Source of the DNA: Escherichia coli | Lineage (GTDB): Bacteria; Pseudomonadota; Gammaproteobacteria; Enterobacterales; Enterobacteriaceae | Reading direction: 5' to 3' (one strand) | NCBI RefSeq assembly: GCF_003334335.1 | Contig: NZ_QOWQ01000035.1 | DNA: 47,404 nucleotides | In this document: positions 16,639-17,038 of the stretch, piece after piece | Position numbering within the stretch: position 1 is the stretch's first letter | Layout: every line of letters begins with the position of its first letter | Notes under the pieces: generated by a model | Told to the model about the DNA's origin: nothing | Seen by the model: the letters and a program-made list of their open reading frames with translations, nothing else | The model's database searches: none | Position numbers and translations under genes: made by a program

Positions 16639-16961
16639 AGAAAATTCTTCCTTAAAGCAAATTTTGTTATTTTATTTAGCCAGATTGTTTTTGAGTTCTG
16701 TTTTCGGCTTTTATAATTACTGCAAGAAATAATTTTATATTTAGTGTGTTGTTTTTTATCAGAATAAATAACGTCTTCTGATACGTTTAAAACGTCAGAA
16801 AGATAAAAATATCATGTGAATTAAAAAAAGAACAAGTAGAGCATTAACATTATCTTAAATAATAAATAGAGGCAAAAAGATTATTTTCTTTTTGCGTTTC
16901 CTTTCAAATGAAAACGATCGTCGTCTAAAATCAGCAGTACCCCCGACAAACTCAGGGATTT

Positions 16962-16971
16962 TGTGTATAAT
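16962..16971 (+). promoter_or_regulatory. candidate extended -10 promoter element (tgtgtataat) for yjdM
   Basis: TGnTATAAT match about 70 bp upstream of the yjdM ATG. Confidence 0.4.
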
Positions 16972-17038
16972 TGCGGCCTTTTTCGGCAATCTGCCGTTTT
17001 TTGGCGCTTTTGCCCTGCTGACTTTTGAGGAAATCCAC

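What the first reader, a model, noticed from the sequence alone, without database searches (positions are those of the whole stretch)
16639..17038. 400-bp AT-rich non-coding gap between divergent crfC and yjdM
This is an unusually long intergenic region for this compact segment. It contains a near-consensus extended -10 (tgtgtataat at 16962-16971) facing yjdM and multiple A/T tracts. It could hold divergent promoters and possibly an unannotated small RNA; the ORFs called here are short, overlap yjdM and look spurious.
Basis: seen in the sequence. Interest (0 to 1): 0.25.

Follow-up and report, generated by a model that had tools for sequence, protein, structure and literature searches.

The report
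Ordinary divergent promoter region, crfC–yjdM
The 400-bp AT-rich gap is the shared control region of two E. coli genes that point away from each other (an H-NS-silenced upstream region for crfC/rdcA and a compact strong-looking promoter with a short leader for yjdM); I found no evidence for a hidden small-RNA or small-protein gene, so it is ordinary.

Summary
The gap is exactly 400 bp (16639-17038), between the crfC/rdcA/yjdA start (- strand) and the yjdM/phnA start (+ strand). It is the most AT-rich 400 bp of the window and unusually dense in A/T tracts.

The "extended -10" is wrong in detail. TATAAT (16966-16971) is a perfect -10, but the TG is out of register.

Comparison with about 20 enterobacterial genera splits the gap into two modules:
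- **yjdM module (16931-17038, 48% GC).** It holds CCGACA-17-TATAAT and a roughly 60-nt U-rich leader with a conserved small hairpin, a T-run and a strong Shine-Dalgarno (SD) sequence. This module travels with yjdM even where crfC is absent.
- **crfC module (16639-16930, 25% GC).** It holds the conserved crfC leader and proximal block, plus a distal sigma-70-like element with conserved spacing. It decays in E. albertii, which has lost crfC.

Published work already reports H-NS binding and repression of the crfC promoter region. It also places the FliA promoter inside crfC, not in the gap.

There are no Rfam matches, no conserved ORFs and no conserved structure in the AT-rich part, so the small-RNA idea is unsupported, though not formally excluded. 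I could not retrieve any mapped transcription start site (TSS).

Minor extras are a perfect DnaA box over the yjdM -10 and a modestly structured yjdM leader. Interest is low.

The parts
16639..17038 (.). 400-bp intergenic region between divergent crfC (rdcA/yjdA, 14410-16638, -) and yjdM (phnA, 17039-17374, +).
   Evidence: Present at 96-100% identity in 5413 of 5426 complete E. coli genomes, with no annotated feature.
16639..16733 (-). crfC-proximal conserved block. It contains the SD AAGGAA (16648-16653), a leader motif GGCTAAATAAAA, and GTAATTATAAAAGCCGAAAA (16701-16720). The last motif holds -10-like hexamers on both strands (TATAAA / AATTAT on -, TATAAT 16712-16717 on +). I read it as the crfC 5' UTR plus proximal core promoter.
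   Evidence: It is the most conserved part of the gap across 18 genera that keep crfC. It drops to neutral-level identity (0.81, against 0.83 at yjdM third codon positions) in E. albertii, which has deleted crfC. The TSS is not mapped here.
16734..16843 (.). Escherichia-specific, very AT-rich (24.5% GC) middle segment with short palindromes: TATCAGAA/TTCTGATA at 16757-16783 and ACGTTTAAAACGT at 16783-16795. Other genera carry ~150-200 bp of different conserved sequence at this position.
   Evidence: Identity to E. albertii is only 0.61, with deletions.
16847..16875 (-). Candidate distal sigma-70-like promoter facing crfC: -35 TTGCCT (16875-16870), 17-bp spacer, -10 TAATGT (16852-16847). Other genera have TTGCCA/TTGCTA/TTGATA-17-TAAGGT.
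   Evidence: Both hexamers and their gap-free 17-bp spacing are conserved in the multi-genus alignment. The -10 is weak (3 of 6) and falls below the threshold of the scan. It is an inference and could instead be a transcription-factor site.
16872..16895 (.). Perfect 9-bp inverted repeat GCAAAAAGA-N6-TCTTTTTGC, scored as a weak terminator-like hairpin on both strands.
   Evidence: It is present in E. coli and E. albertii but not in other genera. Its function is unknown.
16943..16971 (+). yjdM sigma-70 promoter: -35 CCGACA (16943-16948), 17-bp spacer, -10 TATAAT (16966-16971). A GC-rich discriminator TGCGGCC follows. The predicted TSS is about 16976-16979.
   Evidence: 10 of 12 matches. It is conserved as AATAG.CCGACAA...GGGATTT...TATAAT/TATACT in about 20 genera, including those without crfC. 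Identity to E. albertii is 98%.
16962..16970 (-). Perfect DnaA-box consensus TTATACACA, overlapping the yjdM -10.
   Evidence: There are 3 perfect boxes in the 47-kb window against 1.2 expected, and 14 of 100 shuffles reach 3. The box is perfect only in Escherichia, with 1 or more mismatches elsewhere. Binding was not tested.
16976..17038 (+). Predicted yjdM 5' leader of about 60 nt, U-rich.
   Evidence: Inferred from the promoter position. Leaders of all 22 genera tested fold better than dinucleotide shuffles (mean z -1.76). Identity to E. albertii is 97%.
16984..17002 (+). Leader hairpin H1, CGGCA-ATC-TGCCG, followed by T6. It looks like an intrinsic terminator.
   Evidence: On an unfitted MAFFT alignment of 14 genera, 92.8% of cells are paired, but only 2 changes are compensatory and the shuffle control is not significant. 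Stability is only -5.3 to -6.0 kcal/mol.
17003..17014 (+). Leader hairpin H2, GGC-GCTTTT-GCC. It is weak in E. coli. Other genera have 5-6 bp hairpins of unrelated sequence at the same place.
   Evidence: H2-only z-scores are negative in 16 of 21 genera. For E. coli z is -0.63.
17027..17031 (+). yjdM Shine-Dalgarno GAGGA, 7 nt before the ATG.
   Evidence: It is invariant in the alignment. The yjdM ribosome-binding site (RBS) is listed among those with the highest measured initiation rates (PMC6498945).

Best explanation
The gap is an ordinary bipartite divergent regulatory region. It is not a gene.

(1) The right-hand ~108 bp (16931-17038) is a self-contained yjdM expression unit.
- It has a sigma-70 promoter with a perfect -10 and a 4/6 -35 at 17-bp spacing, followed by a GC-rich discriminator.
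- It has a ~60-nt U-rich leader carrying one small conserved hairpin followed by a T-run, a second weak hairpin, and a near-ideal Shine-Dalgarno sequence.
- Together these would give high constitutive expression.

(2) The left-hand ~290 bp (16639-16930) is the crfC (rdcA) upstream region.
- It is 25% GC and dense in A/T tracts.
- It contains the conserved crfC leader and proximal promoter block next to the gene, and a second conserved sigma-70-like element ~200 bp upstream.
- Its composition makes it a substrate for H-NS, which binds there and keeps crfC transcription low.

What is shown:
- coordinates, composition and motif matches;
- the cross-genus conservation pattern;
- the co-inheritance of each module with its own gene.

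What is taken from the literature:
- H-NS binding and derepression;
- the FliA promoter lying inside crfC rather than in the gap.

What is inferred:
- exact transcription start sites;
- which of the two crfC-facing elements is the active promoter;
- what the leader hairpins do. My best guess is mRNA 5'-end protection or weak attenuation.
For: - Exact 400-bp gap, unannotated in RefSeq.
- Extreme AT-richness and A/T-tract excess, confined to 16639-16930.
- Promoter-like sites number 5 against 1.6 +/- 1.7 in shuffles. The best + strand site is CCGACA-17-TATAAT.
- The divergent crfC/yjdM arrangement with a long gap (427-656 bp) is conserved in Citrobacter, Enterobacter, Leclercia, Pluralibacter, Phytobacter, Pseudescherichia, Siccibacter and others.
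- The alignment shows discrete conserved blocks at the crfC end, at 16844-16890, and at the yjdM promoter and leader.
- In Pseudocitrobacter and Kluyvera, which lack crfC, homology to E. coli begins at 16931 or 16943. The yjdM unit is therefore ~100 bp.
- E. albertii has deleted crfC-rdcB. There the crfC-proximal block has fallen to neutral identity (0.81, 0.61), while the yjdM promoter and leader stay at 0.97-0.98.
- The FliA site lies inside yjdA (window 14638-14665). The upstream FliA promoter was 'incorrectly predicted' (PMC4183435), and SELEX agrees (PMC5493296).
- The yjdM RBS has one of the highest measured initiation rates (PMC6498945).
Against: - I could not retrieve an experimentally mapped TSS for either gene. 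Supplement searches returned nothing, probably because the tables were truncated.
- The RpoD-holoenzyme SELEX list mentions yjdM only for the yjdM-yjdN spacer, not for this gap (PMC3946193). That does not support a strong constitutive promoter here.
- The H-NS high-affinity motif TCGATAAATT is absent at 2 or fewer mismatches.
- The crfC-facing promoter elements are weak matches, and neither can be assigned with confidence.
- 16805-16930 stays 91% identical in E. albertii although crfC is gone there. This fits imperfectly with a purely crfC-serving role.
Confidence: 0.8

Rival explanations
1. An independent small RNA is encoded in the AT-rich part. One candidate would start from the + strand TATAAT at 16712-16717 and end at the 16872-16895 hairpin, giving about 175 nt. 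Another would run on the - strand from the distal promoter.
For: - A conserved TATAAT lies on the + strand at 16712-16717.
- A perfect 9-bp inverted repeat is scored as terminator-like on both strands.
- The + strand segment 16724-16905 folds with z = -2.0.
- 16805-16930 is more conserved in E. albertii than neutral sites are.
Against: - There is no Rfam match at E <= 10, nor in 10 other genera.
- No acceptable -35 accompanies this -10, and it is not listed by the scan.
- The hairpin is AU-rich with poor T tails, and it is absent outside Escherichia.
- The region between the candidate start and end is the least conserved part of the gap, and it differs by large indels between genera.
- The MFE structure has an ensemble frequency of 0.0003.
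Confidence: 0.06
2. The yjdM leader is a regulatory RNA element. H1 plus the T-run would act as a promoter-proximal attenuator that ends a fraction of transcripts at about 17000. An alternative pairing (GGCAA/UUGCC with UGCCG/UGGCG) or a bound factor would control read-through into yjdM.
For: - The terminator-like call for H1.
- A hairpin followed by a U-run occurs at the same leader position in most genera. In Pluralibacter gergoviae it is a 9-bp, -16.6 kcal/mol hairpin followed by UUGUGUUUUUU.
- All 22 leaders fold better than shuffles, with mean z -1.76.
- E. coli has an alternative, mutually exclusive fold.
Against: - H1 is only 5 bp and -5.3 to -6.0 kcal/mol, which is weaker than typical E. 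coli intrinsic terminators.
- H1 is conserved in sequence, with only 2 compensatory changes and a non-significant shuffle control. A DNA-level palindrome, such as an operator at about +6 to +18, fits equally well.
- H2 is weak in E. coli (z -0.63).
- RNAalifold on the unfitted alignment finds only 3 pairs.
- The held supplement text of the 3'-end mapping paper has no yjdM entry, though it may be truncated.
- The very high yjdM translation rate suggests the leader is mainly an efficient RBS context.
Confidence: 0.15
3. DnaA co-regulates the divergent pair through the perfect DnaA box over the yjdM -10 (16962-16970) and weaker boxes upstream of crfC. This would tie expression of the clamp-binding CrfC protein and of YjdM to replication status.
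For: - There is a perfect TTATACACA and a 1-mismatch box at 16815-16823.
- PMC6374313 reports DnaA-box consensus sequences in the crfC promoter region. It also reports that the moderate rise in crfC mRNA seen in wild type at 42 C is absent in dnaA46 cells.
Against: - Three perfect boxes in the window against 1.2 expected is not significant (14 of 100 shuffles reach 3).
- The box overlaps TATAA by necessity of sequence.
- It is perfect only in Escherichia and is lost in Enterobacter, Leclercia and others.
- No binding data were available.
Confidence: 0.1
4. A small protein is encoded in the gap.
For: Several ORFs of 16 to 44 aa lie within the gap, and longer ones of 33 to 88 aa run out of it into crfC or yjdM.
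Against: - Cross-genus peptide similarity appears only over the conserved yjdM promoter and leader DNA. It appears in several frames and on both strands, which is the signature of non-coding conservation.
- The + strand leader ORFs start upstream of the predicted TSS.
- Nothing is annotated here in MG1655 or other RefSeq genomes.
Confidence: 0.02

Closest known systems
H-NS-silenced AT-rich upstream regions of E. coli genes (the class mapped by H-NS ChIP-chip and SELEX; the crfC promoter region itself is reported as one)
   Same: It has 25% GC, a roughly three-fold excess of A/T tracts, and a position upstream of a weakly expressed gene. Binding and derepression in a hns deletion mutant are reported for this very region (PMC6374313).
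   Different: The Lang et al. high-affinity motif has no match at 2 or fewer mismatches. Binding was not measured here.
Canonical sigma-70 housekeeping promoter with a GC-rich discriminator
   Same: It has a perfect -10, a 17-bp spacer, a 4/6 -35, and a GC-rich stretch TGCGGCC between the -10 and the start. It is conserved across genera.
   Different: It is not an extended -10 promoter, because the TG is out of register. The TSS and any growth-rate or ppGpp response are untested. It is not listed in the RpoD SELEX set for this spacer.
Promoter-proximal leader hairpins: 5' stem-loop mRNA stabilisers (ompA type) and intrinsic-terminator attenuators (pyrBI or trp leader type)
   Same: A small GC-rich hairpin lies a few nucleotides from the predicted 5' end and is followed by a U-run. 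It occupies a conserved position in many genera.
   Different: The stem is much shorter and weaker (5 bp, about -5.5 kcal/mol). There is no leader peptide and no demonstrated 3' end or stabilising effect. Covariation is minimal.
Sigma-28 (FliA) class 3 promoters
   Same: A -10-like GCCGAAAA (7 of 8 matches to GCCGATAA) is conserved 63-70 nt upstream of the crfC ATG. yjdA responds to fliA deletion and overexpression on microarrays (PMC1935009).
   Different: There is no TAAAGTTT-like -35 at the required spacing. ChIP-seq and SELEX place the FliA site inside crfC, at window 14638-14665.
Intergenic enterobacterial sRNA genes (Rfam families)
   Same: The setting is a long, conserved-length intergenic region with promoter-like and terminator-like matches.
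   Different: There is no Rfam match, no conserved sequence or structure block with a promoter-plus-terminator architecture, and large indels between genera.

Membership tests
Sigma-70 promoter (yjdM) | -35 and -10 hexamers matching TTGACA/TATAAT at 16-18 bp spacing | tested here: met
   CCGACA-17-TATAAT, 10 of 12 matches.
Sigma-70 promoter (yjdM) | Conservation of the hexamers and their spacing in orthologous loci | tested here: met
   Conserved in about 20 genera, including those lacking crfC.
Sigma-70 promoter (yjdM) | Experimentally mapped transcription start | not testable with these tools
   Supplement searches of TSS and 3'-end papers returned nothing for this locus.
Extended -10 promoter | TG at -15/-14 (TGnTATAAT) | tested here: not met
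   The bases before TATAAT are G-T-G. The scan reports no TG, and it is not conserved.
H-NS-bound silenced region | AT-rich DNA rich in A-tracts | tested here: met
   25% GC over 16639-16930. There are 21 tracts against 7.3 expected.
H-NS-bound silenced region | High-affinity nucleation motif TCGATAAATT | tested here: not met
   No match at 2 or fewer mismatches in 16600-17060.
H-NS-bound silenced region | In vivo binding and derepression in a hns mutant | not testable with these tools
   Reported in the literature for the crfC promoter region (PMC6374313, citing Oshima 2006 and Shimada 2011).
Sigma-28 (FliA) promoter upstream of crfC | TAAAGTTT-N11-GCCGATAA | tested here: not met
   Only the -10-like GCCGAAAA is present (16701-16708, - strand). 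The full motif is absent at 5 or fewer mismatches. ChIP-seq and SELEX place FliA inside crfC.
Intergenic sRNA gene | Match to a described RNA family | tested here: not met
   No Rfam match in the gap at E <= 10, nor in 10 orthologous loci at E <= 0.1.
Intergenic sRNA gene | Own promoter plus a Rho-independent terminator that bracket a conserved segment | tested here: not met
   The candidate start and end elements are weak, and the segment between them is the least conserved part of the gap.
Intergenic sRNA gene | Detected discrete transcript | not testable with these tools
   No expression data were accessible.
Intrinsic terminator / leader attenuator (yjdM H1) | GC-rich stem-loop immediately followed by a U-tract | tested here: met
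   CGGCAATCTGCCG plus TTTTTT. Analogous hairpin-plus-U-run elements occur in most genera.
Intrinsic terminator / leader attenuator (yjdM H1) | Hairpin stability in the range of functional terminators, and covariation that supports an RNA helix | tested here: inconclusive
   Stability is -5.3 to -6.0 kcal/mol. Cells are 92.8% paired, with only 2 compensatory changes and a non-significant shuffle control.
DnaA-regulated promoter | Consensus DnaA box TTATNCACA at the promoter | tested here: met
   Perfect TTATACACA at 16962-16970, - strand.
DnaA-regulated promoter | Box conserved in relatives or more frequent than chance | tested here: not met
   The box is perfect only in Escherichia. The window count is not significant.

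The most novel reading that the evidence does not exclude
The ~60-nt yjdM leader and the sequence around its promoter could form an undescribed cis-regulatory unit conserved in Enterobacteriaceae. Its parts would be:
- the conserved inverted repeat CGGCA-N3-TGCCG flanked by T-runs at about +6 to +25;
- a second hairpin at the same position that differs in sequence between genera;
- in Escherichia, a perfect DnaA box over the -10.

The unit would act either as a promoter-proximal attenuator RNA or as an operator. It would set the very high expression of the uncharacterised zinc-ribbon protein YjdM, possibly in step with replication status and with the neighbouring clamp-binding CrfC.
Probability: 0.1. 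Interest if true: 0.35.

Novelty: already known. Interest (0 to 1): 0.12.

Why it matters
It matters little beyond housekeeping.

- The region is a normal divergent control region of a model organism. Its main property, H-NS silencing of crfC/rdcA, is already published, and so is the correction that the FliA promoter lies inside crfC.
- The module boundary is a practical by-product. About 108 bp serve yjdM and about 290 bp serve crfC. This is useful for anyone who builds reporter fusions or deletions at this locus, including work on REP325/naRNA4 that relies on the yjdM promoter.
- The conserved yjdM leader hairpin and the DnaA box over the -10 are cheap to test. They would be of modest interest if functional, because the function of YjdM is unresolved and it is very efficiently translated.

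Tried and rejected
- **Mapped TSSs and 3' ends.** I searched the supplements of three genome-wide papers (Adams 2021, Cappable-seq, SMRT-Cappable-seq) by gene names and coordinates. Nothing was found, probably because the stored tables are cut before 4.32 Mb.
- **Promoter names.** A full-text search for yjdAp, phnAp and similar names returned only unrelated papers.
- **Rfam.** Scans with permissive thresholds found nothing in the gap in E. coli or in 10 other genera. Twenty Firmicute yjdM loci show no riboswitch upstream of yjdM.
- **Motif scans.** Scans for FliA, sigma-54, CRP, IHF, Fis, FlhDC half-sites and the H-NS high-affinity motif found nothing convincing in the gap.
- **RNAalifold.** On the MAFFT leader alignment it recovers only 3 pairs of H1, because the length-variable H2 is misaligned.
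- **N-padded alignment.** I tried to pass a hand-made structural alignment to the tools by padding with N. MAFFT re-shifted three rows. The hand-fitted counts are therefore reported only with a warning about bias. The unfitted H1 test and the shuffle z-scores carry the argument.
- **IscR type-2 site.** I compared the CCC-N-GGG repeat with the IscR type-2 consensus as I recalled it, with no tool call. The spacing does not fit, so I dropped the idea.
- **SD-sequestering pairing.** The pairing 16921-16937 with 17015-17031 is not conserved outside Escherichia, so I dropped it.
- **Small ORFs.** Rejected as coding.

Full report
**Identity and coordinates.**
- The window is E. coli. It matches K-12-type genomes at 100% over the gap.
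- The gap lies between crfC (also called yjdA or rdcA; 14410-16638, - strand) and yjdM (also called phnA; 17039-17374, + strand).
- In MG1655 the same 400 bp are 4326735-4327134 and carry no annotation. A window coordinate x corresponds to MG1655 coordinate 4343773 - x, on the opposite strand.
- The sequence is present at 96-100% identity in 5413 of 5426 complete E. coli genomes.

**Check of the observation.**
- The gap is exactly 400 bp.
- Its GC content is 0.3125 against 0.53 for the window, which puts it at the 0.2th percentile of 400-bp windows.
- It has 21 A/T tracts of at least 4 bases, against 7.3 +/- 2.4 in shuffles (profile).
- Promoter-like matches number 5 against 1.6 +/- 1.7 expected. 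Terminator-like matches number 4 against 0.7 +/- 0.8.
- It is the longest genuine intergenic gap in a crude ORF map of the window.
- The string tgtgtataat is at 16962-16971 as stated. However, TATAAT (16966-16971) is preceded by G-T-G, so it is a perfect -10 and not an extended -10.
- The AT-richness is not uniform. 16639-16930 is about 25% GC, and 16931-17038 is about 48% GC.

**Comparative anatomy.**
- A scan of one genome per species with YjdM returned 80 loci.
- crfC lies divergently upstream of yjdM in Citrobacter, Enterobacter, Leclercia, Pluralibacter, Phytobacter, Pseudescherichia, Superficieibacter, Siccibacter, Mangrovibacter and others.
- In 18 of the 22 other loci that keep both genes the gap is 427-656 bp. 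It is 402 bp in a second E. coli, 788 bp in Mangrovibacter and 1182 bp in the Cedecea neteri group. A long gap is therefore ancestral, and E. coli has the shortest version.
- The multi-genus alignment shows four conserved blocks separated by unalignable sequence:
  - (a) 16639-16733, next to crfC. It contains the SD AAGGAA, the motif GGCTAAATAAAA, and GTAATTATAAAAGCCGA.
  - (b) 16844-16890. Its core is CACCTTATCTgAAAT...GGCAATTT. Read on the - strand, this is TTGCC(A/T)-17-TAA(G/T)GT with gap-free spacing.
  - (c) The yjdM promoter, AATAG.CCGACAA...GGGATTT...TATAAT.
  - (d) The yjdM leader.
- Between (a) and (b), other genera share ~150-200 bp that E. coli lacks (for example CAGCGTAGC..CAGGATATATC..TTTACCCACC..GAGAGGTAAT).

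**Natural deletion experiments assign the blocks to genes.**
- Pseudocitrobacter and Kluyvera have no crfC. Their homology to E. coli begins at 16931 or 16943.
- E. albertii has deleted window 14094-16580, which removes most of rdcB and all but 58 nt of crfC, but it keeps the gap.
- Identity of the E. albertii gap to E. coli, block by block:

| Window block | Identity |
|---|---|
| 16639-16733 | 0.81 |
| 16734-16804 | 0.61 |
| 16805-16930 | 0.91 |
| 16931-16977 | 0.98 |
| 16978-17038 | 0.97 |
| yjdM third codon positions (neutral reference) | 0.83 |

- The crfC-proximal block therefore loses constraint when crfC is lost, while the yjdM promoter and leader stay under strong constraint.
- The intermediate value for 16805-16930 is not fully explained.

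**Literature.**
[quoted passage not shown] It shows that crfC mRNA is markedly increased in a hns deletion mutant, and it notes DnaA-box consensus sequences there.
- yjdA was placed in the FliA regulon on the basis of microarrays (PMC1935009).
- ChIP-seq and RNA-seq showed that the FliA promoter is inside yjdA and drives yjcZ, and that the FliA promoter predicted upstream of yjdA was incorrect (PMC4183435). RpoF SELEX agrees (PMC5493296).
- That internal site is at window 14638-14665 on the - strand.
- In the gap, only a -10-like GCCGAAAA exists (16701-16708, - strand), without a matching -35.
- The yjdM promoter is assumed in the REP325/naRNA4 literature to drive the downstream repeats (PMC4550694; bioRxiv 10.64898/2026.03.23.713779).
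- The yjdM RBS is named among those with the highest measured initiation rates (PMC6498945).
- RpoD SELEX lists a site in the yjdM-yjdN spacer but none for this gap (PMC3946193).

**The yjdM leader.**
- With a start near 16976-16979, the leader is about 60 nt: GCC-U5, then H1 (CGGCA-AUC-UGCCG, 16984-16996), then U6, then H2 (GGC-GCUUUU-GCC, 17003-17014), then about 12 nt, then GAGGA, then 7 nt, then AUG.
- Per-genus folding gives the same two-hairpin layout in most genera.
- All 22 leaders fold better than dinucleotide shuffles, with mean z -1.76.
- On an unfitted alignment, H1 is 92.8% paired. It is mostly sequence-invariant, with two compensatory changes and a non-significant shuffle control. 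An RNA helix and a DNA palindrome therefore cannot be told apart.
- H2 differs in sequence between genera but keeps a hairpin. The H2-only z-scores are modest: 16 of 21 are negative, and the E. coli value is -0.63.
- H1 is weak for a terminator, at -5.3 to -6.0 kcal/mol.
- I read the leader as an efficient, U-rich translation-initiation region with a small 5' hairpin. Attenuation or operator function remains possible but unproven.

**The small-RNA and small-ORF ideas.**
- There are no Rfam matches.
- Candidate transcripts do not fold remarkably.
- The 9-bp inverted repeat at 16872-16895 is restricted to Escherichia.
- Short ORFs show cross-genus similarity only over conserved non-coding DNA, in several frames on both strands.
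- These ideas are unsupported. Only expression data could exclude them completely.

**Other motifs.**
- A perfect DnaA box (TTATACACA, - strand, 16962-16970) overlaps the yjdM -10. Statistically this is unremarkable, and the box is perfect only in Escherichia.
- No convincing CRP, IHF, Fis, sigma-54 or FlhDC sites were found.

**Verdict.** This is an ordinary divergent promoter region whose main regulatory property is already published. The 'divergent promoters' interpretation is supported, and the 'unannotated sRNA' interpretation is not.

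Noticed in passing
window 17392-17668: There are three tandem naRNA4/REP325 units (Rfam RF02564, 95-111 bits) between yjdM and yjdN. MG1655 is described as having six. The yjdM-yjdN spacer is 357 bp here against 657 bp in MG1655 and CV601gfp, so this strain carries a 300-bp shorter REP325 array.
   Followed up: partly
window 14638-14665 (- strand), inside crfC: This is an exact match to the published intragenic FliA promoter motif TAAAGTTCTGGCAGAGCAGGTCGATGAA, which drives yjcZ/rdcB. It is the real sigma-28 promoter of the locus.
   Followed up: yes
L007 (Escherichia albertii NBRC 107761), 2447-2600, relative to window 14094-16580: E. albertii has deleted almost all of crfC and most of rdcB but keeps the intergenic region and yjdM. 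The crfC-proximal part of the gap is decaying there.
   Followed up: yes
L006, L011, L014, L017, L023, L024 and others, about 150-350 bp upstream of yjdM (alignment columns ~225-375): Genera other than Escherichia share conserved blocks in the middle of the gap that E. coli has lost (CAGCGTAGC.CA, CAGGATATATC, TTTACCCACC, GAGAGGTAAT). There is no Rfam match and no conserved ORF. Their function is unknown.
   Followed up: partly
window 16938-16960: An inverted repeat CCC(C)G-N-CAGGG(A) straddles the yjdM -35 and spacer. It is clearer in Citrobacter (GTCCCGACAAAAGCAGGGAT) and nearly perfect in Cedecea (AATCCCTGCAAATGTAGGGATT). It could be an operator for an unknown dimeric regulator.
   Followed up: no
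window 16962-16970 (- strand): A perfect DnaA-box consensus TTATACACA overlaps the yjdM -10 hexamer. The neighbouring gene product CrfC is a clamp-binding protein.
   Followed up: partly
window 16757-16795: This is a cluster of short perfect palindromes in the Escherichia-specific AT-rich segment: TATCAGAA-N11-TTCTGATA, and ACGTTT-A-AAACGT. The second is deleted in E. albertii.
   Followed up: no
L004 (USCO01000113.1, labelled uncultured Clostridiales bacterium): This is a 7-kb metagenome-assembled contig. Its match to the window (16896-17450: the yjdM promoter, yjdM and one REP unit) is 99% identical to E. coli, which probably reflects a binning contaminant.
   Followed up: no
L001 898-1775 (strain CV601gfp): rdcB (yjcZ) is annotated as a frameshifted pseudogene in this K-12 derivative.
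   Followed up: no
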